Part shown: positions 37,218-50,562 of the stretch, piece by piece
Position numbering within the stretch: position 1 is the first letter of the stretch
Layout of the letters: the number at the start of each line of letters is the position of its first letter
Source: Candidatus Undinarchaeales archaeon
Lineage (GTDB): Archaea > SpSt-1190 > JASMDC01
Reading direction: 5' to 3'
DNA length: 50,562 bases
NCBI GenBank assembly: GCA_030753015.1
Contig: JASMDC010000025.1
Coordinates: 1-50,562 of the forward strand
Program-made: the position numbers and the translations under genes
Notes under the pieces: model-generated
Seen by the model: only the letters and a program-made list of their open reading frames with translations
Told to the model about the DNA's origin: nothing
Databases searched by the model: none

Positions 37218-37475
37218 ATGAGCGAGAAGCAGCGCATCGGGACCGTGTTCACCTACTTCGCCAAGGTGGGTGTCGCCGGCATCGTGCTCGAGGAGGGCAC
37301 CCTGAAGGTGGGCGATACCATCTCTATCGAGGGACACACCACGAACATTCAACAGACCGTCGACTCCATTCAGATCGACCGGCAGGAAGTGGGAGAGGCC
37401 GGACCCGGCTCGAAGATCGGCATCAAGACCAAGGACCGCGTCCGACACCAGGACGTCGTGTACCGCGTAGAGTAG
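37218..37475 (+). CDS. Small EF-Tu domain II / U32 C-terminal-like beta-barrel protein
   Basis: IGTVFTYFAKVGVAGI...LKVGDTISIEGHTT..QQTVDSIQID...IGIK..DRVR..DVVY. Confidence 0.85.
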   Translation: MSEKQRIGTVFTYFAKVGVAGIVLEEGTLKVGDTISIEGHTTNIQQTVDSIQIDRQEVGEAGPGSKIGIKTKDRVRHQDVVYRVE

Positions 37476-37630
37476 CTCCATTGAGGGCACCTGTCCCCGG
37501 TCCACCAGTCAACACCACGTCCCGGTGATCTGAAGAACATCACCATGGCCCTCTCCAGAGGGTCCGAGCGGTCCACGTTCACGCCCGCCCCCCTAATGCT
37601 TATGAAGGATGGCGTTCCCTTAACAACCCG

Positions 37631-37990
37631 ATGCCCAAGGATGAGCCGTGGGAGGTGAAGCTGTTCGCTTTCTTCCTGTTCATGGGGATCATCATCCTCC
37701 CGGTCGTCTTCATGGCCGAGATGCTCTTCCCAGGTATGACCGAGGAATGGGCAGGGTTCACGGTACAATGGGGCATCGTCATCATGGGGTTCGGCCCCCT
37801 TCTCTTCGTCGGCATCATCGCCTACGCTTACATCAAGCACAAGCGGATCGTCTCTCGCCTAGAGACCGTTGACCGCATCAAGGAAGTCCATCTCGATGAC
37901 TGGGAGAAGGAGATGGAAGAGGAGATAGAGGAGTCCTTCGAGAGCCCCTACGAGTCCGAGTCCTACTACTCCAACCGCTTCCCGTTCTGA
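37631..37990 (+). CDS. Hypothetical membrane protein (two TM segments, acidic tail)
   Basis: Two hydrophobic segments; G/C-rich third positions. Confidence 0.7.
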   Translation: MPKDEPWEVKLFAFFLFMGIIILPVVFMAEMLFPGMTEEWAGFTVQWGIVIMGFGPLLFVGIIAYAYIKHKRIVSRLETVDRIKEVHLDDWEKEMEEEIEESFESPYESESYYSNRFPF

Positions 37991-38008
37991 GCGGGACCGT
38001 CCATCCCC

Positions 38009-41000
38009 CTAGAATCCGCCCTGGAGCACGTACACGAGTGTGAGCAGGAAGGCGACGACGAACGCCAGGGCAAGGATGAGCTTGATGTTCCGGGTCCGCG
38101 CCTCGGCGATCATCTCATCGCTCGTGCAGTTCCGGCACCGCTCCTCGGTGCGCACCAGATCTCGCCGGAGCACGACCGCGTGCTCGTCGCACACTTGCTT
38201 CCCGCAGTTGGGGCAGTCATGGATGTGGTCGGGACAGAACACCTTGTCACAGTAGGTGCACTTGTGCCCGTCAGCGTGCTCGGAGCTCACGTGCTTGTCG
38301 CAGCCCTCGGTGGTGCATGCCACGGCGTGCTCATTGCAGAGGGGCTTCCCGCCCGCCGCGCATTCGATGGAGCACATGGGACAGGTCACCATCTGGCATA
38401 CCGAGCAGGGGACCTCGTCGATCCTCTCGCTCAGCACGCTCTCGCACTGGGGACAGGTCCAACTGTGCTCCTTGCAGATGACCTCGCCGGATGCGGCGCA
38501 GTTGATGGCATGGTCGGGGCACAGGAGCTCGCCGCACACCGAGCAGCTCGATCCATGCTCGGTGCACACCACGTGCTGGCAGATCTTGCACGAACGCTCC
38601 CCGACATGTTCCGGGCACACCGCACGTGAGCATCCCTCGACTATACATGGGGTCGAGTGCCCTTCACAGAGCGCCACCTGGCACACGTCGCACCGGAGCG
38701 TGTGCTCCTCGCACAGCAGTTCACCGCCCTCGATGCATACGGCGCCTGGGGCCTCTGTAGTGAGGTCAACGGTGCACCCCGCATGTTCGCAGGGTCCGGC
38801 CGAGCCCGCACCGTCGACAGTGTACGTGACCGTCACCTCACGCGAGCCCTTGGGATAACCTATCTCGGTGTCCACGACGATCGTTCTCGGTATCCAGACT
38901 ACACGCGGCTCGGAGACGGCGACGCTGTCCGGGTCCACACGCAGCTCAAGGCTCTTGAGCTCCCGGTCGAGCGTCTGAGTGAACTGCTTCTCGACCAGCT
39001 GCTTCTCCCGTGCGATGGCGGCCGCTTCCCGCTCCTGCTTCTTGTCCAGCATGGCGATGGTCTTCTCGGCGGCCGAGATCTTCGCCTTGATGTCGGCGAT
39101 GCGCCGCTTGCGCGAGGAGATGCTTGTGTTGAGCTGGGTGATCGGCTTGCCCTCCTTCTTCTTGGCCGCCTTCTGGGACTCCAGGTCCTTGACCTCCCCT
39201 TCCAGGGAGGCGATGTCGGTGCGGTAGCGCTGGATGTCGCCCTCGGCCTTCTCCTTCTTGTAAGCTGTTTCATCCTCGAGCTTGGCCTGCTTCTCGTCCA
39301 CCCTGCTGGTCTTCCCCTCGAGATCGAGGGCGAAGTGGTCCTTCAGCGATTCCCGGACCTCATCGGCGTCCATGGAGAACATGTTGGTCTTGGGAGAATA
39401 GTAGATAATGCCGGACAGTTCCTCCGCGGCCGTTCTCTGGGCGGCCTTTAGCAGCTCCCGGTGTTTCGCGGCGGGCTCGAATTTCTCCAGAGCGTGCTCA
39501 GCTCCCGACGCGATGGCCTTCATACCGTCCGCGAAGGTCGAACCGGTGTACTCCGAGCCGTCGACGCCCTCGAATAGTACGTCGGGACCAGCCGCTGACA
39601 TGTCGGCTGTCACCTGCCATTCCTGGTCAGCACGGAACGCTTCGATGATTCCGGGTAGCTTTTTCTCCACGGAGCAGGAAAGGGATGCGGCCAGGAGGGG
39701 AGTGGCACGGACCGTGACGCGCTTAGCCCTTGCCATGACCTCCTCCAGAGGGAAGGTGGCCAGCAGACCATCAGTGGTCACTTTAGGGTCCAGGAGGCTC
39801 TCACCCAGTCCGGGGAGCGAGACGGCCTTCTTCCGTTTCGTAGGTTCAGCTGCAGCGACCTCCTCCTTCGTCTTCTCGAACGGCGCGGCGAGCAGCTGGA
39901 TCTCCTCTGGGTTCAACGGTCCACGGTGGTAGGTCAGCAGCCATCGGGGCTGGACGAACAAGGGCTCACCACGGTCGGGATTGTGGAAGAAGAACTGCCT
40001 CGTCTTCAGCACAGCGAGCTGGTCGGCGAGCTCGGTGACCGGAATATCCATTCCGAGGGCGACCTTCTCCACGTCGCGCTTGGTCTTGAGGTTCCCCACG
40101 AAGCGGTTGTTGATGTTGGAGAGCGCCATGTAGTCGATGTCGCCCGGGTTCTGGGTGGCGAAGATGCAGCCCAGGCCGAAGGCACGCGCCTGCTTGATCA
40201 GTAGCCTGAGCCCCTTCTTCGAAGGAGGGTTCTTGGGATCGGATGGGAGGTACCCGGCGATCTCGTCGAAGTACAGGAGGTAGCGCAGGTTCTGCGTGCC
40301 ACCCTGCTTGAGCAGCCACTTGTAGAGCTCTTGGGTCAGCATACCGACGAAGAACTGGCGCTCGGACTCCTCGGTGATCCACCGAAGGTCCATGACGGTG
40401 ATGGGTGTCCTCTCACCACGGGCGAAGATGCGGTCGAAGTTAAGCGGCTCGCCCACGAACCATGCCTTCAGGCCCGGGAGCGTGAGCACCAGATTGAGCT
40501 TGGAGGCGAGTTCCGAGCGCTCCTTCTCGTTGATGAACTGGTCCACGGTGAGCGAGCCCATCTCCTCGAAGGGAGGGCTCATGACCTGGTTGATCAGCGC
40601 ACCGAGGTCCGGTGAGGAGCCCTTCTCCCACTCGTGGAGAAGGCACTGGGAGAGGAAGGACAGCTCCTTCTTTGCCGAGTCGCTATACCCCACGAGCTTG
40701 AGGAGGGAGAGCATGGTGGACTCGATCATGTCCAGCGCGAGCGTCGGGTCCGCGTTCATGAGCTCGTTGAACCTGGGTGGGGGTTCCATGCGCGGTGAGA
40801 TGGAGACCTCTAGACCGGTGGTGCTCTTGGGTGTGTAGATGCGCACCTCGGTGGTCTCCTTGAGCTGGCGGATCTGCTCGGCGGTGTAGTCGAACTGCGC
40901 CAGGGACTCCAGGTACCGCTCTCCCATCTTCCGGGAGTACTCGTCAGGATCCATCCCGGCGTTCTCGGCCTCGGTGTCGGACCACGGCCGGAAGTCCAGC

Positions 41001-41212
41001 TCGGGGAAGGCCAGCGCCAGTCCGCCGATGTCGCCCTTGGGATCGATGGCGAGGGTAGGGACGCGGGTGAGCGCTGCCTCCTCGATGAGCGTCTTGCACA
41101 TCACGGTCTTGCCCGAGCCCGTGGCGCCGAGGACCACGCCGTGCTTGAGCAGGAGGTCGCTGTTGAGAGTGAAACGCTGTCCGTCGCTGGTCGTACCTAT
41201 GTTGAGCTCCAT
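38009..41212 (-). CDS. HerA/DUF87-like ATPase fused to coiled coil, Zn-finger array and C-terminal TM anchor
   Basis: GATGSGKT, IDPKGD, YFDEI, KQARAFGLGCIFATQNP; about 12 C-x2-C-x4-C-x2-H units; hydrophobic tail; start at MELNIG (41212). Confidence 0.88.
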   Translation of the reverse strand: MELNIGTTSDGQRFTLNSDLLLKHGVVLGATGSGKTVMCKTLIEEAALTRVPTLAIDPKGDIGGLALAFPELDFRPWSDTEAENAGMDPDEYSRKMGERYLESLAQFDYTAEQIRQLKETTEVRIYTPKSTTGLEVSISPRMEPPPRFNELMNADPTLALDMIESTMLSLLKLVGYSDSAKKELSFLSQCLLHEWEKGSSPDLGALINQVMSPPFEEMGSLTVDQFINEKERSELASKLNLVLTLPGLKAWFVGEPLNFDRIFARGERTPITVMDLRWITEESERQFFVGMLTQELYKWLLKQGGTQNLRYLLYFDEIAGYLPSDPKNPPSKKGLRLLIKQARAFGLGCIFATQNPGDIDYMALSNINNRFVGNLKTKRDVEKVALGMDIPVTELADQLAVLKTRQFFFHNPDRGEPLFVQPRWLLTYHRGPLNPEEIQLLAAPFEKTKEEVAAAEPTKRKKAVSLPGLGESLLDPKVTTDGLLATFPLEEVMARAKRVTVRATPLLAASLSCSVEKKLPGIIEAFRADQEWQVTADMSAAGPDVLFEGVDGSEYTGSTFADGMKAIASGAEHALEKFEPAAKHRELLKAAQRTAAEELSGIIYYSPKTNMFSMDADEVRESLKDHFALDLEGKTSRVDEKQAKLEDETAYKKEKAEGDIQRYRTDIASLEGEVKDLESQKAAKKKEGKPITQLNTSISSRKRRIADIKAKISAAEKTIAMLDKKQEREAAAIAREKQLVEKQFTQTLDRELKSLELRVDPDSVAVSEPRVVWIPRTIVVDTEIGYPKGSREVTVTYTVDGAGSAGPCEHAGCTVDLTTEAPGAVCIEGGELLCEEHTLRCDVCQVALCEGHSTPCIVEGCSRAVCPEHVGERSCKICQHVVCTEHGSSCSVCGELLCPDHAINCAASGEVICKEHSWTCPQCESVLSERIDEVPCSVCQMVTCPMCSIECAAGGKPLCNEHAVACTTEGCDKHVSSEHADGHKCTYCDKVFCPDHIHDCPNCGKQVCDEHAVVLRRDLVRTEERCRNCTSDEMIAEARTRNIKLILALAFVVAFLLTLVYVLQGGF

Positions 41213-41305
41213 GGAGAGTATCCCCCGAACTGGACAATCGAGCATATCAATAAAAATCCACGGTCGGCGCATTGAAGGCCGACAGGGAGGTCTACACGTC
41301 GTCGT

Positions 41306-41332
41306 CGAAATACCTATTTAAACCATCCACCG
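41306..41332 (+). promoter_or_regulatory. BRE/TATA promoter of surface protein 1
   Basis: CGAAATACCTATTTAAACCATCCACCG; TATA box begins 30 nt before ATG 41345. Confidence 0.75.
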
Positions 41333-41344
41333 CTTGGAAGTACA

Positions 41345-44300
41345 ATGGGAAGGCATACACTTCGAGTTATTATCTTGTTCCTGTTCGCTCTCGCGTTCGT
41401 TGGAGTGGGCGCGGACTGCACAACGGACGCAGACTGTCCTTCGAACCTGGTCTGTAAAGAGGGCAGTTGTTACTTCGGTGGAAAGGGCTGCTGCCTGCAC
41501 ATGGGGGCGGACGACCACTGCGAATACCTGAACCACTGGAACTGCAATACGGGATGGTTCATCTTGTCGAGCTGCGAGGCCCAGGCCCATGTGTGCTCTA
41601 CGGCCACTCCCACTCCGACACCTACCCCGCCCGCTGACGAGTGCACCAACAATGACGACTGTCCTTCGAACCTTGTCTGCCACGATGGTGGATGCTACTT
41701 CGGTTCCAAGGGCTGCTGCCTGCACATGGGGGCGGACGACCACTGCGAGTACCTGGACCACTGGGAATGCGATACGGGATGGTTCATTCTGTCGAGCTGT
41801 GAGTCCCAGGCCCATGTGTGCTCTACACCCTCTCCGGTCTCCACTCCCACACCTTCATCGCTCGACGCGCTAATCCTCGCAACGACAATCAACTATCCCG
41901 ACGCCATTGTTGCTGGCGCGGCCGCTCAGAAGATGGGTGTCCCTGTACTCCTCACACCGCCCGATGTTCTTTCTGAAGACGTGGATACTTTCATCAAGGA
42001 GGAGAAGCCCCAGAAGATAATCCTCCTCGGCGGGACTGCGGTCATCGGGAGCGCCATCGAGGGGAACCTTACGACCGACGGTTACGATACCGTGCGTCTG
42101 TGGGGGATGACCCGATTCGGCACCGCAGCCGAACTGGCCCAGCACGCGTGGGACGCCGGTGCTGACGAGGCAGTTGTGGTGAACGATCGCATCGAAGATG
42201 GAGGAAGTGATGAGCACACTCAGCTGGTGATGGCAAAGGAACTGGCCGCAGCCCGGACACAGCCCATCCTCCTCACATCCAACGAGGAACTGCCCCCTGC
42301 TACCAAGGAGGCGCTTGAGGAGCTCGGCGTCAAGAAGGTGACGCTCGTAGGCACCCGGTTCGAGGAATCCGTGCTCACCGCGCTCCGAGAGCTCGGGATT
42401 CATCTTGAGGTGGTCACTGGCGAGACGGTGGAGGAGGTGAACGAGAAGCTTCAAGAGGAGGTCGTGGATGTGCTACGGGAAAACGTTCCTGGAGGACAGC
42501 TCACACGCCTCGTTGTCCTGGCCGCAGGCACTGATTACAGGGCATCCATCTCACTCCCGGCAAGCGACGAGGCCACGGCGTCCATGATCCTTCTAGACGC
42601 GGACCAGGTCCCGAAGGTCATCGACTTCATCGGGAAACACGGTATCAAGGAAGTGACGGTCATCGGTGTGCCCAGGATCACCTCTGCAGTAGTCGCCCAG
42701 CTCCTTATGGTAGAAGGCGTCCAGGTGAGCGCCCTCTCGACCAAAGCCATCGAGAAGGGCCTCATCGATCACATCAAGGAGCGGCGCGATAACTGGAGGA
42801 AGCAACGAGGGGAAAGCCTGAACCGTCGTGAGAAGGAGCTTGCAGAGCATGGTCACGAGCTCAAGAAACGGACGGAGCGTGCCGTTGAGAAGTCACAGAA
42901 GATAATCACCGAGGTCACCGCGGCCCTTGAGGAGATCACGTCAGTGGATCTCCCTGGCGAGCTCATCCAGATCGTCGTGATGTTCGAAAGCAAGCTGGAC
43001 AAGGCCCGACAGCTGGTAGATCAGGCCCATGATATCGTCGAGGGCGCTGGTGGTGATGGTCGGGCGTACGCCGAGGCCCTCCGGCTCCTGAAGAAAGCGG
43101 AGGGTGTGGCCCGTGAGGCTAAGTACAAGGGTATGAAGATGATCGCTGAGTTCGAGCGGCGTCAGATGGAGTCCCTCCGACGACAGAAAGAGTATGAGGC
43201 CGAGCGTTTGCGAAAGGAGCGTGATGCCATGGCCGATGAGTTCCTTGGCGATATGGATATCAAGGAGAACCTGCGCGATAGGATCCTTTCGAAGAGGGAG
43301 CATCTTGCAGATGTTCGCGAGCGCGTCAAGGAGGACCGCGGCCGTGGTCAGCCCGGAAAGCGCAGGTTCGGTCCATCCCTTGAAGGTAAGGAAATCGGTC
43401 CGCGTTTCGACAAGGACCGGTTCCGCAAGAAGGACCTCTCGAAGCGCAGGTTCGGCAAGGACCTCTCTCTGCGTGGCGCCGATCCGTGCAAGCGGTGCAT
43501 CTCGAAGTGCGGAGATGAGGAGCAAGGTCCCGAGTGCGCGTTCATCTGTGCCGACACCTGCGGGAAGAGCCCGTGCGACCTGTGCAACGAGTACTGTCCT
43601 GAGGAGATCGACGATCCCAGGATGTGCCCGATCATCTGCGGCGAGGTCTGCCGGATGGCTGACGAGGTTGCCGATTTCCGTGGTTTCAAGTCACCCCGAT
43701 CCGAGGATGGACGTGAGTCGAGCGGCCTGACATGCTGCCAGCCGGACCGGGGCGCGTCCACGCCCGCCTGCATCGTCGACCTGGGCCAGCCGTGCCCCAA
43801 TAGGTACCGTCCCCTCGAGGACGAGTGGGTGGACCCCTTCAATGATGGCAACTGCATCGGAGACAAGGGCGATCGCGGTCCTCGGTGCGAAGAGTTCGAC
43901 CTGAGCGACGCACCTTTCCCTGAGGATGGGGGACGGTACAGGGATGATTATCGGGATGAGGATCGGTTCATGGATGATGACCGATGGCTCCCGCCGCCCG
44001 ACCTCCCGCCGAAGCACAGGTCCGGAGACCTGTGCAGAGAGTGCGTGGACGAGTGCTTTGCCAAGGGCGAGGATGGGGCCGAGTGCGGATTCATCTGTGA
44101 GCGCCCCTGTGGCGTCGATGCCTGTGACATCTGCGAGAAGGGGTGTCGTATCAATGACATCCCGCCAGCCGAATGCCATAACACTTGCCGGCCCGCGTGC
44201 GAGGAGCCGGAGGAGTTTGACTACGACGAAGGAAGCCAGTGCGATCGCTGTGTGGACGACTGCATGGAAGAGCTCGGCAACCTGGATGAGTGCAGCGGTA

Positions 44301-45295
44301 TCTGCGAGGATGCGTGCCACCGCGATCCGTGCTCCGTGTGCGAAGGTCAGTGTCCGCGTGTCCTGGATGACGCGAGTGAGTGCCACGACACATGCGGTAT
44401 GGTTTGCGGCCGGCCTCCGTCCGAGCCCGAAGGGCCCGACCCCATCACCCTCTGCCGTGACCAGTGCAAGGGGCAGAGGGACGCGGGGGCATGCATGCAG
44501 TTCTGTATAAGGCGATGGGACAAAGAAGCCCGAGCCGGGCCAAGGTCCGGCCAGCTCCCCGAGAGCGGGCCCTCCGACGACACTGTCAGGTCTGCGTTGA
44601 TGAAGAGGACAGAAGCGGAGTTCCGCGGCTCGAACCGGGATGAGCGCGACACGGACCTCCGCGAGGACTTTGACGAGCGGTACACGTCCATCGGGTCCCG
44701 CTTCGGGAATGCTTCCGTGGCGCGGGGATGGCGCAACACCCTGGTCGGTCTCGACCTGGTGCGTCCGGGGGGCTATCAGCAGTGGACCAGCACAACAACG
44801 GAATACACGTATGACGTATATGGTAGGATCTCGGCGACGAGAGAGACCGTGACCAGCAACGAGAGCCCGGACAAGGTCGCCACCAGGACCACCTCCTTCA
44901 AATATGACTCCCTCGGTGAGGTGCTGGAGATCCGCGAGACCGTGACCGGTGGAACAGGCCAGAACGAGACAACTCTCACCGACATCCGTCGTGATGACGA
45001 GGGCCGTGTGACGGGATTCCAGTACACGGAAGGGACCGGTGAATTTACCGTCACCGGTATCAGCTACGATGATTATGGTGGCGAGGTAACGAGCTACCAT
45101 TTCGAGGATGCAACCGGTTCCGTTGATGTGGGCGAGATCGACATCACGGACATACGCTACGATGATGTTGGCCGAATGACGGGATATCGTCATACCGTGA
45201 TGCGCGCCGGGTCCACGTTGGAACGGATTTGCGGTGATGGCACGTGCACGCCGCCGTTCGAGAACGCGCGCTCGTGTCCGGTTGACTGCGGATAG
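41345..45295 (+). CDS. Giant secreted Cys-rich surface protein 1 (CWB2 repeats, coiled coil, Cys hairpins, YD-like repeats)
   Basis: Signal peptide; two Cys-rich repeats; CWB2 motifs NYPDAI..PVLLT..IILLGGTAVI, RLWGMTRFGT; YDxxG repeats; terminal CGDGTC..E..SCPVDC. Confidence 0.9.
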   Translation: MGRHTLRVIILFLFALAFVGVGADCTTDADCPSNLVCKEGSCYFGGKGCCLHMGADDHCEYLNHWNCNTGWFILSSCEAQAHVCSTATPTPTPTPPADECTNNDDCPSNLVCHDGGCYFGSKGCCLHMGADDHCEYLDHWECDTGWFILSSCESQAHVCSTPSPVSTPTPSSLDALILATTINYPDAIVAGAAAQKMGVPVLLTPPDVLSEDVDTFIKEEKPQKIILLGGTAVIGSAIEGNLTTDGYDTVRLWGMTRFGTAAELAQHAWDAGADEAVVVNDRIEDGGSDEHTQLVMAKELAAARTQPILLTSNEELPPATKEALEELGVKKVTLVGTRFEESVLTALRELGIHLEVVTGETVEEVNEKLQEEVVDVLRENVPGGQLTRLVVLAAGTDYRASISLPASDEATASMILLDADQVPKVIDFIGKHGIKEVTVIGVPRITSAVVAQLLMVEGVQVSALSTKAIEKGLIDHIKERRDNWRKQRGESLNRREKELAEHGHELKKRTERAVEKSQKIITEVTAALEEITSVDLPGELIQIVVMFESKLDKARQLVDQAHDIVEGAGGDGRAYAEALRLLKKAEGVAREAKYKGMKMIAEFERRQMESLRRQKEYEAERLRKERDAMADEFLGDMDIKENLRDRILSKREHLADVRERVKEDRGRGQPGKRRFGPSLEGKEIGPRFDKDRFRKKDLSKRRFGKDLSLRGADPCKRCISKCGDEEQGPECAFICADTCGKSPCDLCNEYCPEEIDDPRMCPIICGEVCRMADEVADFRGFKSPRSEDGRESSGLTCCQPDRGASTPACIVDLGQPCPNRYRPLEDEWVDPFNDGNCIGDKGDRGPRCEEFDLSDAPFPEDGGRYRDDYRDEDRFMDDDRWLPPPDLPPKHRSGDLCRECVDECFAKGEDGAECGFICERPCGVDACDICEKGCRINDIPPAECHNTCRPACEEPEEFDYDEGSQCDRCVDDCMEELGNLDECSGICEDACHRDPCSVCEGQCPRVLDDASECHDTCGMVCGRPPSEPEGPDPITLCRDQCKGQRDAGACMQFCIRRWDKEARAGPRSGQLPESGPSDDTVRSALMKRTEAEFRGSNRDERDTDLREDFDERYTSIGSRFGNASVARGWRNTLVGLDLVRPGGYQQWTSTTTEYTYDVYGRISATRETVTSNESPDKVATRTTSFKYDSLGEVLEIRETVTGGTGQNETTLTDIRRDDEGRVTGFQYTEGTGEFTVTGISYDDYGGEVTSYHFEDATGSVDVGEIDITDIRYDDVGRMTGYRHTVMRAGSTLERICGDGTCTPPFENARSCPVDCG
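41417..41826 (+). repeat. Two tandem 225-nt coding repeats
   Basis: Units start at 41417 and 41642 and share long identical tracts, e.g. AAGGGCTGCTGCCTGCACATGGGGGCGGACGACCACTGCGA. Confidence 0.9.
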
Positions 45296-45464
45296 TACGT
45301 GATCGGCCCATGATACGGTGACAGTCGTCAAGGATGATGGGGATTCCCCACCGGCGTCGTCGTTCTATCCAGAAAGAGGACGGCATGCTCGACGCCCGGC
45401 GATCTGACCGGTACCGACGGGAGTCGAAGCGGAACGGCCCCCGATGACCTCTTCTTTTCCGTCC

Positions 45465-45490
45465 CGAATACCTATTTAAACTATCCACCG
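45465..45490 (+). promoter_or_regulatory. BRE/TATA promoter of surface protein 2
   Basis: CGAATACCTATTTAAACTATCCACCG, near-copy of 41306-41332; TATA begins 31 nt before ATG 45504. Confidence 0.75.
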
Positions 45491-45503
45491 GAGATAGATG
45501 GGT

Positions 45504-48500
45504 ATGGGATCCATTTCAGCAAGAACGCTCATCACGACAATCCTGATAACCATGATGCTGGGATCCGCCCTGGACTGCACGGACAGTGACGGTGGCAAGA
45601 ACTACTATACGCAGGGCCACTTGATCGGCGAGATGGCGCAGCCTGGAGGCTCGACGTACCACCTTGACTCCTTCGACGCCTGTACGGACGCGACCCGTGT
45701 TTCCGAGTACTTCTGCTACGTTGAGGGTGGTGTCGAGTACGGCCTCTGGGAGACATATAACTGCGCCAACGAGGGCAAGTTCTGCGAGAATGGCGTGTGC
45801 GTCGATCCCGAGCCTCTCCCACCCTGCACCGACAGCGACGGCGGGAAGGATTACTACACGCAGGGCCATCTCGTTGGCGAGATGGAGCAACCCGGTGGTT
45901 CCACTTACCACCTTGACGGATTCGACACCTGCACTGACGCGACTCGTGTTTCTGAGTACTTCTGCTACATTGAAGGTGGCGTCGAGTACGGCATCTGGGA
46001 GACATATAACTGCGCTAACGAGGGCAAGTTCTGCGAGAATGGCGTGTGCGTCGATCCCGAGCCTCTCCCACCCTGCACCGACAGCGACGGCGGGAAGGAT
46101 TACTATACGCAGGGCCACTTGATCGGCGAGATGGCGCTGCCTGGATGCTCGTCGTACCACCTTGACTCCTTCTACGCCTGCACTGACGCGACCCGTGTTT
46201 CCGAGTACTTCTGCTACCTTGAAGGGGGCATCGAGTACGGCATCTGGGAGACGTACAACTGCGCCAATGAGGGGAAGATATGCGAGGAGGGGAAATGTGT
46301 CGCTGATCCCGAAGCGCAGGACGCTGAGCTCGAATGTACGGACAGAGACGGTGGCAAGGACTACTACGTGAAGGGCCATCTCGTTGGCGAGATGTCGCAG
46401 CCCGGCGGCTCGACTTACCACCTTGACGGGTTCGACGCCTGCACTGACGCGACCCGTGTTTCCGAGTACTTCTGTTACGTTGAGGGTGGTGTCGAGTACG
46501 GCCTCTGGGAGACATATAACTGCGCCAACGAGGGCAAGTTCTGCGAGAATGGCGTGTGCGTCGATCCCGAGCCTCTCCCACCCTGCACCGACAGCGACGG
46601 CGGGAAGGACTACTACACGAAGGGCCATCTCGTTGGTGAGATGGAGCAGCCCGGTGGTTCCACGTACCACCTTGACGGATTCGACGCCTGCACTGACGCG
46701 ACTCGTGTTTCCGAGTACTTCTGTTACGTGGAAGGGGGCATCGAGTACGGAATCTGGGAGACGTATAACTGCGCTAACGAGGGCAAGCTCTGCGAGGAAG
46801 GCGTGTGTGTCGATCCCGAGCCTCTCCCCCCTTGTACCGACAGCGACGGCGGGAAGGACTACTACGTGAAGGGCCACCTTGTCGGCGAGATGGAGCAGCC
46901 CGGCGGTTCCACGTACCACCTTGACGGGTTCGACGCCTGCACTGACGCGACCCGCGTTTCCGAGTACTTCTGCTACGTTGAGGGTGGTGTCGAGTACGGC
47001 ATCTGGGAGACGTATAACTGTGCCGACGAGGGAAAGGTCTGCGAGGATGGAAGCTGTATTCCCTCCGTCGAGGACACCCCGCCCTGCACGGACAGCGATG
47101 GTGGCAAGGACTACTACACAAAGGGTAATCTTATCGGCGAAATGGAGCAGCCCGGCGGCTCTACGTACCACCTTGACTCGTCCGACGCCTGCACGGACCC
47201 CACGCGCCTGTCAGAGTATTTCTGCTACGAGGAGGATGGGATCCAGTACGGCATCTGGGAGACGTATGACTGCGCTGACGAGGAGAAGTTGTGCGAGAAC
47301 GGCGTGTGCATCGAGCCTGACCAGGAGGACGAGGTCCAGCTCTGCCAGGACTCTGACGGTGGCAAGGACTACTACACAAAGGGTCATCTCGTCGGCGAGA
47401 TGGCGCAACCCGGCGGTTCGACATACCACCTTGACTCCTTCGACGCTTGCACCGATGCGACTCGCGTTTCCGAATACTTCTGCTACCTTGAGGGAGGCAT
47501 CGACTACGGCATCTGGGAGACGTACAACTGCGCGGACGAGGGCAAGTCCTGTGAGGACGGTGCGTGCGTTGTCCCGGCCCCTGCCGAGGGGACGCCTCCC
47601 TGCGCTGACAGCGACGGTGGGAAGGACTACTACACGAAGGGCCATCTCGTCGGCGAGATGGAGCAGCCCGGCGGTTCCACATATCACCTTGACTCGTCCG
47701 ATGCTTGCACGGACGCGACCCGTGTCTCCGAATACTTCTGCTACGTAGAAGGAGGTATCGAGTACGGCATCTGGGAGACGTACGACTGTGCCAACGAGGG
47801 GAAAGCATGCGAGGACGGTGTATGCGTTGTCCCGGCCCCTGCCGAAGGGACGCCTCCCTGCACCGACAGTGACGGCGGGAAGGACTACTACACGCAGGGC
47901 CATCTCGTCGGCGAGATGGCGCAGCCAGGAGGCTCAACATACCACCTTGACTCGTCCGACGCCTGCACGGACGCGACCCGCGTTTCAGAGTACTTCTGCT
48001 ACGTGGAAGGAGGTGTCGAGTACGGCATCTGGGAGACGCACGACTGTGCTGACGAGGGCAAGCTGTGCAATGACGGCGTGTGCGTCACCGATCCCGCAGC
48101 GCAGGGTGGCGAGCTTGAATGCACGGACAGCGACGGCGGGAAGGACTACTACGAGAAGGGTAATCTTGTCGGCGAGATGGCGCAGCCCGGGGGTTCCACG
48201 TACCACCTTGACTCGTCCGACGCCTGCACGGACGCGACTCGCGTTTCAGAGTACTTCTGCTACGTGGAAGGAGGTGTCGAGTACGGCATCTGGGAGACGT
48301 ACGATTGCGCCAACGAGGGGAAAGCATGCGAGGATGGTGCGTGTGTTGCCCCGGCCCCTGCCGAGGGGACGCCTCCCTGTACGGACAGCGACGGTGGGAA
48401 GGACTACTATGTGAAGGGCCAACTCGTTGGTGAGATGGAGCAGCCCGGCGGTTCCACGTACCACCTTGACTCGTCCGACGCTTGCACGGACGCGACCCGC

Positions 48501-50562
48501 GTTTCAGAGTACTTCTGCTATGTGGAAGGAGGTGTCGAGTACGGTATCTGGGAGACGTACGACTGCGCCAACGAGGGGAAGGCATGCGAGGACGGTGCGT
48601 GCGTTGCCCCGGCCCCTGCCGAGGGGACGCCTCCCTGTACGGACAGCGACGGTGGGAAGGACTACTACGTTAAAGGCCAACTCGTTGGCGAGATGGAGCA
48701 GCCCGGGGGTTCCACGTACCACCTTGACTCGTCCGACGCTTGCACGGACGGGACTCGCGTTTCAGAGTACTTCTGCTATGTGGAGGGTGGAGTCGACTAT
48801 GGCCTATGGGAAACGTACAACTGTGCCGACGAGGGAAAGGTCTGCCAGGACGGGCAGTGCGTTCTCTCATCGGACGCCGGTGAAGCGATGGGTGCCACGG
48901 AAAAGGAGGCGTCTACGAAGCCGACCTCTCTTGACGCCCTCATCCTTGCCACGATTATCAACTACCCGGACGCGATCGTCTCTGGAGCGGCGGCCGAGAA
49001 ATTGGGCATACCCGTGCTCCTCACACCGCCCGACGCCCTCCCCGATGACGTTGCGGCGTTCATCACCGAGGAGATGCCCTCAAAGGTAATCCTCTTGGGT
49101 GGCACGGCGGTCATCAGTCAGGCTATCGAGAATAAACTCAAAGCGGACGGGCTCGACACCGTCCGACTGTGGGGAATCACACGATTCGGCACGGCCGCGG
49201 AGCTCGCACTGTACGCATGGGAGGCCGGCACGGATGGAGCCATCGTCGTGTACGACCGCATCGAGGGTGCGGAGGGTGATGAGCACACACAGCTGGTGAT
49301 GGCCAAATCGTTGGCGGCCGCCCGCACCCAGCCTATCCTGCTGACCACAAACGAGGAGCTTCCCGCCGCGACAAAGGAGGCTCTTGAGGAGCTTGGAGTG
49401 CAGAAGGTGACCCTTGTGGGTACGCAGTTCTCCGAGGACGTTTTCACCGCTCTGAAGGAGCTTGACATCGAGCTCGAAGTGGTGACGGGCGAGACGGTGG
49501 AGGACGTGAACGACAAGCTCCAAGAGGAGGTCGTGGACGAGCTGACAAAGAACCTCCCCGAAGGCAAGCTGGAGCGTCTTGTCGTTGTCGCGGCCGGAAC
49601 GGACTACAAGGCCTCCATCTCACTCCCCGCCAGTGCCGAGGTCACGGCCTCCATGATGGTGCTGGATGTGGAACAGATACCCCGGGTCATCGAGTTCATC
49701 GGTGAGCACGGTATCACGGAAGTGACAGTGGTGGGCATCCCCGAACTCACCTCCGCCGTGGTCGCCAAGCTGCTGATGGTGGAGGGCATCCAGGTGAGCG
49801 CTCTCTCCACCCAGGCCATCGAGAAGGGGCTCGTGGACCGCCTCAAGGAGCGCCGCGAGAGCTGGCGAAACCATCGGGAGAAGCGGTTGGTGGACAGGAA
49901 GGTCGAGCTCATCCGCAAGGGCGACAAGCTACGTGAGAGGACGGAGCGAGCAGTGGAAAAGGCCCAGAGGGTCATAGACGAGATCGATGCTGCCCTGACG
50001 GAGTTAAAGGGCCAGGAACTCCCCGATGAGTTACGCGTCGTGATCGACATGTTCGAGGAGGAGCTCGACAGGGCCCGGCAGTTCGTCGAGGAAGCAGGCG
50101 AGATCACAAAGGGCACTACGGGCAGAGGTCGCGATTTCGCAGAAGCCCTCCGTCTCCTGAAGAAGGCGGAAGGTGTGGCCCGTGAGGCGAAGTACAAGGG
50201 CATGAAGATGATCGCTGAGTTCGAGCGGCGGCAGATGGAGTCCCTCCGACGACAGAAAGAGTCTGAGGCCGAGCGTTTGCGAAAGGAGCGCGATGCCATG
50301 GCCGAAGAGTTGCTTGGCGATATGGATATCAAGGAGAACCTGCGCGAGAGGATCCTCTCGAAGGGAGATCGTCTTGCAGAAATTCGCGAACGCGTCAAAG
50401 AGGACCGCGACCGTGGTCCGCCCGGAGAACGCCGGTTCGGTCCGTCCCTTGAGGGTCGTGAGATCGGTCCGCGTTTCGACAAGGACCGGTTCCGCAAGAA
50501 GGACCTTTCTAAGCGCTCGTTCGGCAAGGACCTCTCGCTGCGTGGCGCCGATCCGTGCAAGC
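45504..50562 (+). CDS. Giant secreted surface protein 2 (13 CTDSDGG repeats plus CWB2 and coiled coil), truncated by window end
   Basis: Hand-read: MGSISARTLITTILITMMLGSALD, repeats, then SLDALILATIINYPDAIV paralogous to protein 1; frame consistent at every checked point; absence from the ORF track fits an open frame with no stop in the window. Confidence 0.9.
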   Translation, partial: MGSISARTLITTILITMMLGSALDCTDSDGGKNYYTQGHLIGEMAQPGGSTYHLDSFDACTDATRVSEYFCYVEGGVEYGLWETYNCANEGKFCENGVCVDPEPLPPCTDSDGGKDYYTQGHLVGEMEQPGGSTYHLDGFDTCTDATRVSEYFCYIEGGVEYGIWETYNCANEGKFCENGVCVDPEPLPPCTDSDGGKDYYTQGHLIGEMALPGCSSYHLDSFYACTDATRVSEYFCYLEGGIEYGIWETYNCANEGKICEEGKCVADPEAQDAELECTDRDGGKDYYVKGHLVGEMSQPGGSTYHLDGFDACTDATRVSEYFCYVEGGVEYGLWETYNCANEGKFCENGVCVDPEPLPPCTDSDGGKDYYTKGHLVGEMEQPGGSTYHLDGFDACTDATRVSEYFCYVEGGIEYGIWETYNCANEGKLCEEGVCVDPEPLPPCTDSDGGKDYYVKGHLVGEMEQPGGSTYHLDGFDACTDATRVSEYFCYVEGGVEYGIWETYNCADEGKVCEDGSCIPSVEDTPPCTDSDGGKDYYTKGNLIGEMEQPGGSTYHLDSSDACTDPTRLSEYFCYEEDGIQYGIWETYDCADEEKLCENGVCIEPDQEDEVQLCQDSDGGKDYYTKGHLVGEMAQPGGSTYHLDSFDACTDATRVSEYFCYLEGGIDYGIWETYNCADEGKSCEDGACVVPAPAEGTPPCADSDGGKDYYTKGHLVGEMEQPGGSTYHLDSSDACTDATRVSEYFCYVEGGIEYGIWETYDCANEGKACEDGVCVVPAPAEGTPPCTDSDGGKDYYTQGHLVGEMAQPGGSTYHLDSSDACTDATRVSEYFCYVEGGVEYGIWETHDCADEGKLCNDGVCVTDPAAQGGELECTDSDGGKDYYEKGNLVGEMAQPGGSTYHLDSSDACTDATRVSEYFCYVEGGVEYGIWETYDCANEGKACEDGACVAPAPAEGTPPCTDSDGGKDYYVKGQLVGEMEQPGGSTYHLDSSDACTDATRVSEYFCYVEGGVEYGIWETYDCANEGKACEDGACVAPAPAEGTPPCTDSDGGKDYYVKGQLVGEMEQPGGSTYHLDSSDACTDGTRVSEYFCYVEGGVDYGLWETYNCADEGKVCQDGQCVLSSDAGEAMGATEKEASTKPTSLDALILATIINYPDAIVSGAAAEKLGIPVLLTPPDALPDDVAAFITEEMPSKVILLGGTAVISQAIENKLKADGLDTVRLWGITRFGTAAELALYAWEAGTDGAIVVYDRIEGAEGDEHTQLVMAKSLAAARTQPILLTTNEELPAATKEALEELGVQKVTLVGTQFSEDVFTALKELDIELEVVTGETVEDVNDKLQEEVVDELTKNLPEGKLERLVVVAAGTDYKASISLPASAEVTASMMVLDVEQIPRVIEFIGEHGITEVTVVGIPELTSAVVAKLLMVEGIQVSALSTQAIEKGLVDRLKERRESWRNHREKRLVDRKVELIRKGDKLRERTERAVEKAQRVIDEIDAALTELKGQELPDELRVVIDMFEEELDRARQFVEEAGEITKGTTGRGRDFAEALRLLKKAEGVAREAKYKGMKMIAEFERRQMESLRRQKESEAERLRKERDAMAEELLGDMDIKENLRERILSKGDRLAEIRERVKEDRDRGPPGERRFGPSLEGREIGPRFDKDRFRKKDLSKRSFGKDLSLRGADPCK
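45576..48860 (+). repeat. Array of 13 tandem coding repeats of 249-261 nt
   Basis: Unit starts at 45576, 45825, 46074, 46335, 46584, 46833, 47085, 47343, 47601, 47859, 48120, 48378, 48636, all in frame. Confidence 0.95.

What the first reader, a model, noticed from the sequence alone, without database searches (positions are those of the whole stretch)
41345..50562. Paralogous surface proteins with a shared chassis and interchangeable Cys-rich heads
Seen: from SLDALILAT onward (about 41860 and 48927) both proteins are collinear through about three CWB2-like repeats, a coiled coil and a KRRFG-containing basic segment, but the N-termini are unrelated: two 75-aa Cys repeats versus thirteen 83-87-aa CTDSDGG repeats. 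Known: CWB2 (PF04122) triplets anchor clostridial S-layer proteins to wall polysaccharide. Inference: modular adhesin family in which heads are swapped and amplified on a glycan-binding stalk, possibly for host recognition.
Basis: partly seen in the sequence, partly recalled or inferred. Interest (0 to 1): 0.8.

Follow-up and report, generated by a model that had tools for sequence, protein, structure and literature searches.

The report
Archaeal wall-binding proteins with swapped heads
Two neighbouring genes of a marine archaeon encode giant secreted proteins that share a clostridial-type wall-binding core and a helical stalk but carry unrelated cysteine-rich repeat arrays in front of it, as part of a gene family that exchanges its outer modules.

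Summary
P0001 (41345-45295, 1316 aa) and P0002 (45498-50561, cut by the contig end) are 72% identical over 575 aa. Their N-terminal arrays are unrelated: 2 x 75 aa versus 13 x 83-87 aa.

The shared core passes Pfam CWB2. Its model matches the C. difficile Cwp6/Cwp8/SlpA CWB2 triple at Z 23-25.

The organism is an archaeon. The genome holds seven CWB2 paralogs, and every CWB2 match lies in them. In a tree, the "headed" genes form a 100/100 clade with four unrelated heads. The two window genes are sister tandem duplicates. A same-genus locus has one gene with another head between the same flanks.

A 24-nt promoter-like box and an MG-type signal peptide sit in front of each head. The 13-unit head is a Pfam-less module that also occurs in DPANN archaea and Patescibacteria. 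It is under purifying selection (dN/dS about 0.1).

Adhesion, glycan binding and host recognition remain untested. I class this as a new variant of a known kind.

The parts
41308..41331 (+). Promoter-like box AATACCTATTTAAACCATCCACCG, 14 nt upstream of the P0001 ATG
   Evidence: Read directly. The same 24-nt block precedes P0002, the C-type paralog (contig C77) and the L014 gene, inside otherwise divergent DNA. Promoter function is inferred from the TATA-like core.
41345..41416 (+). P0001 signal peptide (residues 1-24, MGRHTLRVIILFLFALAFVGVGA|DC)
   Evidence: It is the only hydrophobic 19-mer outside the CWB2 core. The cleavage site is inferred.
41417..41857 (+). Head A: two 75-aa units with 10 Cys each (41417-41641 and 41642-41857), each followed by a Pro/Thr linker
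   Evidence: (78% identity between units). No Pfam family reaches its cut-off. No relative was found in the 5.8-billion-protein set except the same gene in another assembly. The unit occurs only in this gene in the genome.
41858..42754 (+). P0001 CWB2 triple (residues 172-470)
   Evidence: PF04122 58 bits. AF2 model pLDDT 86.5, pTM 0.85. VIA-align Z 25.3 to Cwp6 5j72_A over 272 residues at rmsd 2.8, with model range 1-289.
42755..43414 (+). Charged helical stalk region (residues 471-690, pI 9.4)
   Evidence: The model ends in a long helix, H295-318. Heptad score z 4.2 against 200 shuffles, with P/G breaks. Its first part is the most divergent segment among paralogs, at 28-50% identity.
43415..43492 (+). 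Basic KRRFG/PRFDKDRFRKK segment (residues 691-716, pI 10.5)
   Evidence: It is 89-95% identical among the three headed paralogs.
43493..44569 (+). Cys-rich region (residues 717-1075, 45 Cys, pI 4.3)
   Evidence: No Pfam match. It is 83-98% identical to the C-type paralog and 44-68% to the L014 gene over alignment columns 551-900. Summed contig depth is raised here in two DNA runs, as expected for near-identical paralogs.
44570..45295 (+). C-terminal linker, YD-repeat-like beta region and CGDGTC..C..DCG end (residues 1076-1316), plus the stop codon
   Evidence: TIGR01643 YD_repeat_2x scores 18 bits (cut-off 15.8, E 0.0031) on the 237-aa piece. Pfam RHS_repeat scores only 11.8 bits against 22. 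It is 71% identical to the 327-aa fragment at the end of contig C22.
45468..45491 (+). Promoter-like box AATACCTATTTAAACTATCCACCG upstream of P0002
45498..45575 (+). P0002 signal peptide (residues 1-26)
   Evidence: Sequence. The mature end begins with C of DC, as in P0001 and the C-type paralog.
45576..48893 (+). Head B: 13 tandem CTDSDGG units of 83-87 aa, 6 conserved Cys each
   Evidence: 45 invariant columns. AF2 model of one unit has pLDDT 92.4 and is all-beta. dN/dS 0.097. The unit occurs only in this gene in the genome and was not found in the same-genus genome G001.
48927..49823 (+). P0002 CWB2 triple (residues 1144-1442)
   Evidence: PF04122 55.3 bits. Profile A1 match E 1e-146.
49824..50561 (+). 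P0002 helical stalk and basic segment (residues 1443-1688), cut by the contig end
   Evidence: The rest of the gene most likely lies at the end of contig C22. Its 327-aa 5'-open fragment is followed by the ortholog of the gene that follows the L014 family gene.

Best explanation
The two genes are tandem duplicates within a family of giant, secreted, non-membrane-anchored surface proteins of a marine archaeon.

Each protein is built in the same order:
1. A conserved promoter box and a Sec-type signal peptide.
2. An optional cysteine-rich N-terminal array (the 'head').
3. A triple of CWB2 domains folded into the same triangular tile as in C. difficile Cwp6, Cwp8 and SlpA.
4. A charged helical stalk.
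5. A basic segment.
6. A long disulfide-rich region.
7. A variable C-terminal end.

Proposed mechanism (inferred). The CWB2 tile is the only candidate attachment module. It holds the protein non-covalently on a glycan or polymer of the cell envelope or S-layer. The helical stalk and the Cys-rich arrays project from it.

The head lies between two conserved flanks: promoter plus signal peptide on the 5' side, and the CWB2 core on the 3' side. It has been replaced several times by unrelated modules. One of these, the CTDSDGG unit, belongs to a Pfam-less extracellular module shared with DPANN archaea and Patescibacteria.

The 13 conserved units most likely act as a multivalent binder or a rigid spacer, not as a hypervariable recognition surface.

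Shown here: the architecture, the CWB2 fold, the family, the head differences, the synteny, purifying selection, and presence in marine DNA and RNA libraries. Inferred: surface location, what CWB2 binds, and what the heads bind.
For: - CWB2: PF04122 at 58 and 55 bits against a 24.9 cut-off. Profile A1 against PDB sequences found 7 of 7 hits in C. difficile Cwp6/SlpA, best E 8.6e-24. The model (pLDDT 86.5) matches eight C. difficile chains at Z 23.2-25.3, rmsd 2.6-2.9, 266-275 residues aligned, spanning model residues 1-290. The next entry scores Z 9.7.
- Archaeal host: MCM with the archaeal winged helix, and Topo VI-B, lie in the window.
- No hydrophobic segment other than the signal peptide and the CWB2 core.
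- All 12 PF04122 matches in the genome lie in seven open frames of 1225-1865 aa.
- Tree of 21 rows: the headed clade has 100/100 support, and P0001 and P0002 are sisters at 99/94. Three other ortholog pairs have terminal branches of 0.016-0.055. The window genes and the L014 gene each have terminal branches of 0.17.
- Synteny: window 37343-41265 is 86.7% identical to L014 1-3930. Homology is then lost and resumes at 41861 at 67.7%. The downstream gene is 86.9% identical.
- The promoter box is conserved in 4 of 4 headed genes.
- Independent DNA contigs from two studies bridge 41797-43192, 44701-45632 and 48721-50182 with 0 differences.
- RNA-library contigs from two studies match both genes with 0 differences on several pieces.
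- The chassis without a head is widespread. 84 of the best 150 representatives have the collinear triple right after the N-terminus, and 63 of those 84 are followed by a charged, low-P/G stretch. All named examples are DPANN archaea.
Against: - No ligand of CWB2 is known in any archaeon, and the envelope of this lineage is unknown.
- In P0001 and P0002 the CWB2 tile sits in the middle of the chain, so which end points outward is open.
- Contigs, not raw reads, were laid. RNA-library contigs do not prove transcription, and depth cannot be read as expression.
- The Cys-rich segment is 83-98% identical to the C-type paralog over alignment columns 551-900, and contigs break there. One database protein (P0006) joins the C-type head and core to the P0001 tail. 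The pairing of cores with tails is therefore not fully secure.
- The head unit has no significant structural match. Foldseek gave 0 hits at E <= 0.001, and the best VIA-align Z was 3.0.
- The 3.85-Mb genome does not look like that of an obligate symbiont, so 'host recognition' has no support.
Confidence: 0.6

Rival explanations
1. The CWB2 proteins are themselves the lattice-forming S-layer proteins, tiling through the CWB2 prism as SLPH does in C. difficile. On this reading the locus is an S-layer cassette that varies between strains.
For: The fold is the same as the SLPH tile. In C. difficile the tile both anchors the protein and forms the lattice (PMC8881574, passages read). The window locus is several times more divergent between the two species than other paralog pairs, inside conserved flanks. 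That pattern recalls S-layer cassette types.
Against: The genome also has conventional S-layer candidates with PF05124 above its cut-off: a 955-aa frame on C25, the window ORF 34455-36899, and C64:6228-6476. Seven large and very different paralogs, with 600-1500 aa of extra Cys-rich sequence, do not suit a single lattice protein. NF033435 (SlpA) scores only 15 bits against a 650 cut-off.
Confidence: 0.15
2. The proteins are released into the environment or bind particles, for example chitin or other marine polysaccharides. The Cys-rich units would be carbohydrate-binding modules, and CWB2 would be a further glycan binder rather than a cell anchor.
For: There is no membrane anchor. The organism is found in marine and seawater metagenomes of 12 studies. 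The best, though weak, structural neighbours of the CTDSDGG unit are small disulfide-rich chitin-binding domains: Avr4 6bn0_A at Z 3.0, Blo t 12 2mfk at Z 2.9, CBM14 6so0 at Z 2.7 and Der p 23 4zce at Z 2.2.
Against: Z values of 2-3 are in the noise range the tool itself describes. Foldseek finds nothing. Every experimentally studied CWB2 triple anchors a protein to its own cell wall (PMC8881574).
Confidence: 0.15
3. They are polymorphic toxin-like or contact-dependent competition proteins, with a variable C-terminal tip delivered through a YD/RHS-type region.
For: There is a weak YD-repeat match at the C-terminus of P0001 (TIGR01643, 18 bits against 15.8). The C-terminal ends vary among paralogs and between species.
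Against: The YD-like region is only about 130 aa, far short of an RHS shell. Pfam RHS_repeat is below its cut-off. No toxin, immunity or RHS-core family appears in Pfam or NCBIfam. No small downstream immunity-like gene was seen between P0001 and P0002, where the 202-nt spacer carries the promoter box.
Confidence: 0.05
4. The pattern is an assembly artefact, with chimeric contigs joining unrelated repeats to a shared core.
For: Contigs break inside the family, at the C35 end, at both ends of C102, and at C100, C22 and C77. One database protein looks chimeric (P0006).
Against: Contigs of two independent studies span both head-core junctions and the P0001-P0002 junction with 0 differences. A second assembly gives the same P0001 at 99% identity. 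The C-type head is also joined to its core in the L013 record.
Confidence: 0.03

Closest known systems
[quoted passage not shown]
   Same: Both have three tandem CWB2 domains predicted to fold into the same pseudo-threefold tile (Z 23-25; sequence profile E 8.6e-24). Both are multigene families in which a constant CWB2 triple is combined with different accessory domains. Both are secreted without a membrane anchor.
   Different: The host here is an archaeon with no known peptidoglycan or PSII polymer. The triple is followed by a helical stalk and hundreds of Cys-rich residues. The accessory parts are disulfide-rich repeat arrays, not enzymes. SlpA's own NCBIfam model is not met (15 bits against 650). 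Sequence identity to the solved chains is 15-21%.
'Cell wall-binding repeat-containing protein' / hypothetical proteins of DPANN archaea (Altiarchaeales, Nanohaloarchaeota, Diapherotrites)
   Same: They share the chassis: signal peptide, a collinear CWB2 triple starting at about residue 25-35, then a charged helical region.
   Different: Those proteins have a median length of 618 aa, lack an N-terminal head, and mostly have few cysteines. Only 6 of 84 have 20 or more Cys after the triple. They are known from annotation only. My searches found no paper on them.
Giant surface proteins of DPANN archaea proposed to mediate host attachment (e.g. nanohaloarchaeal SVXNc_0300; PMC10266531, passages read)
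   Same: Both are very large, acidic, modular extracellular proteins of archaea related to DPANN, and both are proposed as contact mediators.
   Different: Those proteins are membrane-anchored, reach 9,409 aa, and are built from Ig-like/fibronectin-like domains, while other surface proteins in that paper carry PKD or LamG domains. CWB2 was not among the terms I searched in that paper. The present genome is 3.85 Mb, not a reduced one.
CBM14 / peritrophin-A type chitin-binding modules (Avr4, Blo t 12, chitotriosidase CBM14)
   Same: Both are small, all-beta, disulfide-rich extracellular modules used in tandem arrays. They are the top rows of the wide structural search with the CTDSDGG unit model.
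   Different: The match is only Z 2.2-3.0 with 41-57 residues aligned. There is no sequence match. This is a resemblance only, not membership.

Membership tests
CWB2 (Pfam PF04122) domain | Match to the Pfam model above the gathering score | tested here: met
   58.0 bits (P0001) and 55.3 bits (P0002) against a 24.9 cut-off, two stretches each. In the own-genome scan, 11 of 12 matches are above the cut-off.
CWB2 triple of the Cwp type | Three tandem CWB2 copies folding into one pseudo-threefold tile | tested here: met
   The predicted model (pLDDT 86.5, pTM 0.85) aligns over residues 1-290 with Cwp6, Cwp8 and six SlpA HMW chains at Z 23.2-25.3 and rmsd 2.6-2.9. This is a prediction, not a solved structure. 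The third copy is not seen by the Pfam model.
CWB2 triple of the Cwp type | [quoted passage not shown] | not testable with these tools
   Known for C. difficile (PMC8881574, passages, which cite Willing et al. 2015). No such polymer is known for this archaeon.
S-layer protein SlpA (NCBIfam NF033435) | Full-length equivalog model above its cut-off | tested here: not met
   15.1 bits against a 650 cut-off, covering only residues 1195-1237 of P0002.
RHS / YD-repeat proteins | Multiple YD repeats above cut-off, forming a long shell, with an RHS core and a C-terminal toxin | tested here: inconclusive
   TIGR01643 scores 18 bits against 15.8 on the isolated 237-aa C-terminal piece, with no single stretch passing. 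Pfam RHS_repeat scores 11.8 against 22. No core or toxin family was found.
CBM14 chitin-binding module (for the CTDSDGG unit) | Structural or sequence match to solved CBM14 domains | tested here: inconclusive
   Best Z 3.0 (6bn0_A), 2.9 (2mfk) and 2.7 (6so0). Foldseek's best is E 1.5. No Pfam match.
Parallel coiled-coil stalk | Long uninterrupted heptad register and oligomerisation | tested here: inconclusive
   A home-made a/d occupancy score gives z 4.2 against 200 shuffles, and 51 of 193 windows score >= 0.5. P/G breaks occur near residues 536 and 568-572. Oligomerisation was not tested.

The most novel reading that the evidence does not exclude
This is an archaeal counterpart of the clostridial Cwp/S-layer-cassette system. 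A hypervariable surface locus lies in a large-genome marine archaeon whose same-class relatives have 0.6-1.2-Mb genomes. In it, a fixed promoter plus signal peptide and a fixed CWB2 tile plus stalk bracket an exchangeable cysteine-rich array. Some of these modules are drawn from a pool shared across domains with Patescibacteria and DPANN archaea. This would imply two things. First, these archaea carry an as yet unknown envelope polymer recognised by CWB2. Second, the CTDSDGG unit is a new carbohydrate-binding or adhesive fold.
Probability: 0.3. Interest if true: 0.75.

Novelty: new variant of a known kind. Interest (0 to 1): 0.55.

Why it matters
CWB2 anchoring has been studied only in Firmicutes. 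Here the same tile is the constant core of a family of giant secreted proteins in an archaeon, and of at least 84 protein clusters whose named members are all DPANN archaea. This points to an unstudied way of attaching proteins to archaeal envelopes, and to an unknown ligand.

The locus also shows module exchange between fixed flanks. That makes it a tractable case for studying how archaeal surface proteins diversify.

The CTDSDGG unit gives a confident model (pLDDT 92.4) with no solved relative. It is a widespread extracellular domain with no Pfam match above cut-off, found in small-celled archaea and bacteria, and worth describing and solving.

Tried and rejected
- Pfam and NCBIfam on the isolated heads, stalk, Cys-rich region and C-terminus: no Pfam family above its cut-off; of NCBIfam only TIGR01643, weakly, on the C-terminal piece. 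The DUF2553, Dumpy_DPY and Nodulin_late rows are below their cut-offs, and I treat them as chance or compositional matches.
- ESM Atlas with the P0001 head: no usable hit.
- The search for homologous proteins with the P0001 head, lengths 'longer': only the same gene from another assembly. This is weak evidence of absence, as the tool itself states.
- Foldseek PDB with the CTDSDGG unit: nothing at E <= 0.001. VIA-align wide: best Z 3.0.
- RNA contigs do not cover every bin of the stretch. I draw nothing from the uncovered parts.
- Literature:
  - 'CWB2' + 'archaea' gave 44 papers. Of the 15 listed, I searched two for terms. The passages shown did not describe archaeal CWB2 proteins.
  - 'DPANN' + 'cell wall binding repeat' gave 0 papers.
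  - 'DSDGG' gave 9 papers, all unrelated by title.
  - 'Undinarchaeota' + 'cysteine-rich' gave 3 papers, none on this by title or abstract.
  - Supplementary files were not consulted.
- Complex prediction was not used, so oligomerisation of the stalk stays untested.
- I considered recent diversifying amplification of the 13 units and rejected it: 0 of 78 unit pairs have dN/dS > 1.
Full report
**What is in the window.** Two large open frames on the + strand fill the last 9.2 kb.
- P0001: 41345-45295, 1316 aa, complete.
- P0002: 45498-50561, 1688 aa, running off the contig end.

BLASTP gives one strong alignment of 414/575 identities (72%), P0001 142-716 against P0002 1116-1688. No other alignment has E below 0.25. 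The N-terminal parts are therefore unrelated, and everything from SLDALILAT onward is collinear.

P0001 has two 75-aa units with 10 Cys each. P0002 has 13 units of 83-87 aa with six conserved Cys.

**The shared core is a CWB2 triple.**
- Pfam PF04122 is met at 58 and 55 bits against a cut-off of 24.9, with two stretches per protein.
- I aligned the core of eight paralogs (A1). As a profile against PDB sequences it found only C. difficile Cwp6 and SlpA chains, 7 of 7 hits, best E 8.6e-24.
- The AlphaFold model of P0001 172-490 has pLDDT 86.5 and pTM 0.85.
- Foldseek ranks SlpA, Cwp6 and Cwp8 first, with E from 4e-10.
- VIA-align gives Z 23.2-25.3 at rmsd 2.6-2.9 over 266-275 residues, spanning model residues 1-290. 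The next entry drops to Z 9.7.

All three copies are therefore present and are predicted to form the triangular tile described for SLPH (PMC8881574, passages read).

**The organism is an archaeon.** The window encodes MCM with the archaeal winged helix, and topoisomerase VI-B. The window is contig C35 of a 3.85-Mb, 117-contig MAG.

A scan of one genome per species found relatives of the core in four loci, all from a single record titled 'Candidatus Undinarchaeota archaeon'. In the relatives search, the only other genome of the genus is 3.6 Mb, while the 15 other same-class genomes searched are 0.6-1.2 Mb.

The P0001 DNA is held by runs labelled marine, seawater or hydrothermal-vent metagenome from 12 studies.

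**It is a family.** The genome has seven open frames of 1225-1865 aa with the triple, plus a weaker 457-aa one. All 12 PF04122 matches in the genome fall inside those seven frames.

Four paralogs (C64, two on C21, C50) carry the triple directly after the signal peptide. They differ in their long C-terminal parts, which are either Cys-rich or, in one case, more than 1200 aa of helical repeats. Three paralogs have an extra N-terminal array:
- P0001, with 2 units.
- P0002, with 13 CTDSDGG units.
- The C-type gene, split over contigs C77, C102 and C100. It has a third, 8-Cys unit, which occurs 16 times in the full-length database copy P0007.

None of the proteins has a hydrophobic segment apart from the signal peptide and the CWB2 core.

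**Head exchange.** A maximum-likelihood tree of the core used 21 rows. I dropped L018 and L029 as duplicates of L013 and L015, and L019 as partial. The tree shows the following:
- The headed genes form one clade with 100/100 support.
- P0001 and P0002 are sisters at 99/94.
- The C-type genes of the two species are nearly identical, with terminal branches of 0.02.
- The L014 gene lies outside the P0001/P0002/C-type group, on a 0.17 branch.

L014 is syntenic with the window:
- Its HerA-like gene and upstream DNA are 86.7% identical to window 37343-41265.
- Homology then stops, and resumes at the first CWB2 codon at 67.7%.
- The 754-aa membrane-protein gene downstream of it is 86.9% identical to a gene on C22, right after a 327-aa family C-terminus at the C22 contig end.

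So this genome has two tandem genes where the other species has one. That one gene carries a fourth head, about 670 aa and non-repetitive. This makes four unrelated heads within one tight clade.

The core at this locus is also several times more divergent between the species than three other ortholog pairs, whose terminal branches are 0.016-0.055 against 0.17 here.

**Conserved flanks of the head.** A 24-nt box, AATACCTAT(T/A)TAAAC(C/T)ATCCA(C/T)(C/G)G, lies 10-15 nt before the ATG of P0001, P0002, the C-type gene and the L014 gene, within otherwise divergent DNA. The P0001, C-type and L014 proteins start with MGR, and P0002 with MGMG. In the three headed genes of this genome the signal peptide ends in x-D-C; the L014 protein lacks this. 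The head thus sits between a conserved 5' cassette and the conserved core. I infer that the box is a TATA/BRE-type promoter feeding near-leaderless transcripts. This was not tested.

**Mosaic identity.** Identity varies along the alignment:

| Segment | Among the three headed paralogs | To the L014 gene |
|---|---|---|
| CWB2 part | 62-84% | similar to the paralogs |
| First half of the stalk | 28-50% | 44-72% |
| Columns 401-550: late stalk and basic segment | 69-95% | 48-71% |
| Columns 551-900: Cys-rich region (P0001 vs C-type only; P0002 ends at column 550) | 83-98% | 44-70% |

This fits gene conversion within the genome. It also explains why contigs break there, at the C35 and C102 ends, and why summed depth is raised at 43484-44452 in two DNA runs. 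One database protein, P0006, joins the C-type head and core to the P0001 tail. The assignment of tails therefore needs long reads.

**The junctions are real.** DNA contigs from two studies bridge 41797-43192, 44701-45632 and 48721-50182 without a single difference. A second assembly gives P0001 at 99% identity. RNA-library contigs from two studies lie on both genes, several pieces with 0 differences. This is a hint of expression, not proof.

**The heads.**
- Head A has no relative anywhere I could search.
- The CTDSDGG unit is a member of a wide family with no Pfam match above cut-off. 67 proteins match at E <= 0.001, and 64 of the 67 sequences scanned (66 of those hits plus P0020) carry 1-7 units at any position in the chain.
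- These proteins co-occur with CARDB, S_layer_C, dockerin and PKD domains.
- Named sources are Diapherotrites, Woesearchaeota, Aenigmarchaeota, Micrarchaeota, Magasanikbacteria, Paceibacterota and a Patescibacteria bacterium.
- P0167, whose cluster has a member named from a Patescibacteria group bacterium, is 53% identical over 55% of the two-unit query.
- One chassis homolog, P0020, carries seven such units in its C-terminal half. The module is therefore not tied to the N-terminus.
- Within the genome the unit occurs only in P0002, and it was not found in the same-genus genome. In all, 3 of 121 genomes matched, two of them weakly.
- The 13 units are 75-92% identical in DNA. Mean dN is 0.087 and mean dS 0.902, and 0 of 78 pairs have dN/dS above 1. 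The array is old and conserved.
- The unit model is confident (pLDDT 92.4, all-beta) but has no significant solved neighbour. The best rows of the wide search are small chitin-binding modules at Z 2.2-3.0, which is only a lead.

**The wider chassis.** The A1 profile hits 26,879 of 1.84 billion representatives at E <= 0.001, which is the general CWB2 superfamily. Of the best 150:
- 84 have a single collinear triple starting within 70 residues of the N-terminus.
- 63 of those 84 are followed by a charged, low-P/G stretch.
- Their median length is 618 aa.
- Only 6 of the 84 have 20 or more Cys after the triple.

I looked up 20 clusters for names. The four that returned names are from Altiarchaeales, Nanohaloarchaeota (twice) and Diapherotrites, annotated 'hypothetical' or 'cell wall-binding repeat-containing protein'. 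My searches found no paper treating them.

**Interpretation.** The constant part (signal peptide, CWB2 tile, helical stalk) is a widespread archaeal surface-protein chassis. In this genus it has been enlarged with disulfide-rich regions and, in one clade, with exchangeable N-terminal arrays.

By analogy with the Cwp family, I take the tile to be the attachment point to an envelope polymer or to the S-layer. PF05124-type S-layer candidates exist in the genome, one of them in the window. I take the arrays to be the outward-facing parts.

Function as an adhesin, the ligand of CWB2, and any host are all inferred. The main rivals are a lattice-forming role and a released particle-binding role.

Noticed in passing
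whole genome G000 (window = C35): The genome is 3.85 Mb and its one same-genus relative is 3.6 Mb. The 15 other same-class genomes searched are 0.6-1.2 Mb. This is a striking size outlier in a lineage whose related record is labelled Undinarchaeota.
   Followed up: partly
whole genome G000: 83 non-overlapping open frames of at least 800 aa have at least 3% Cys, up to 4159 aa and 15% Cys. Together they make up about 10.5% of the genome's bases. These are open frames, not verified genes. If real, the organism invests heavily in giant disulfide-rich proteins.
   Followed up: partly
window 38009-41272 (-): This is a HerA/FtsK-like P-loop ATPase (PF05872, PF01935) of 1087 aa, with a long coiled middle part, a C-terminal run of CxxC-rich zinc-ribbon-like repeats and a final hydrophobic segment. 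It is transcribed divergently from P0001 with only 72 nt between the start codons. The arrangement is conserved in L014.
   Followed up: no
window 34455-36899 (-): This 814-aa protein has a VWA domain and a PF05124 S_layer_C match above its cut-off. Another PF05124 match (C64:6228-6476) lies about 2 kb from the C64 CWB2 paralog.
   Followed up: no
contig ends: C35 50562, C102 both ends, C100, C22 89215, C77 13257: Assembly breaks fall inside the family, where paralogs are near-identical or repeats are long. Database protein P0006 looks like a chimera of the C-type head and core with the P0001 tail.
   Followed up: partly
G000:C21:55981-60345 (L008), 1865-aa paralog: After the CWB2 triple come more than 1200 aa of charged helical sequence with a recurring 'EYDG(V/I)D' motif roughly every 95-100 aa. 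This is followed by CGDGxCNGEE..CC.DCGC repeats. It may be a much longer stalk variant.
   Followed up: no
proteins P0164-P0229: The CTDSDGG unit (consensus C-T-D-S-D-G-G-K-x-Y-Y-x-K-G ... D-x-C ... L-x-E-Y-x-C ... C ... C-x-x-G-A-C) is a widespread extracellular module with no Pfam match above cut-off. It occurs in DPANN archaea and Patescibacteria. It gives a confident model with no significant solved relative.
   Followed up: yes
window 41615, within the Pro/Thr linker between the two head-A units: One DNA run lacks 6 nt here. A second assembly of the gene has the matching 2-aa shorter linker. This is small length variation in the population.
   Followed up: partly
control genomes: PF04122 also hits Methanocaldococcus jannaschii among the 14 control genomes. 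Only one of the two controls hit (the other is Bacillus subtilis) is above the cut-off, and the output does not say which. CWB2-like sequences may therefore be present in cultured methanogens too.
   Followed up: no
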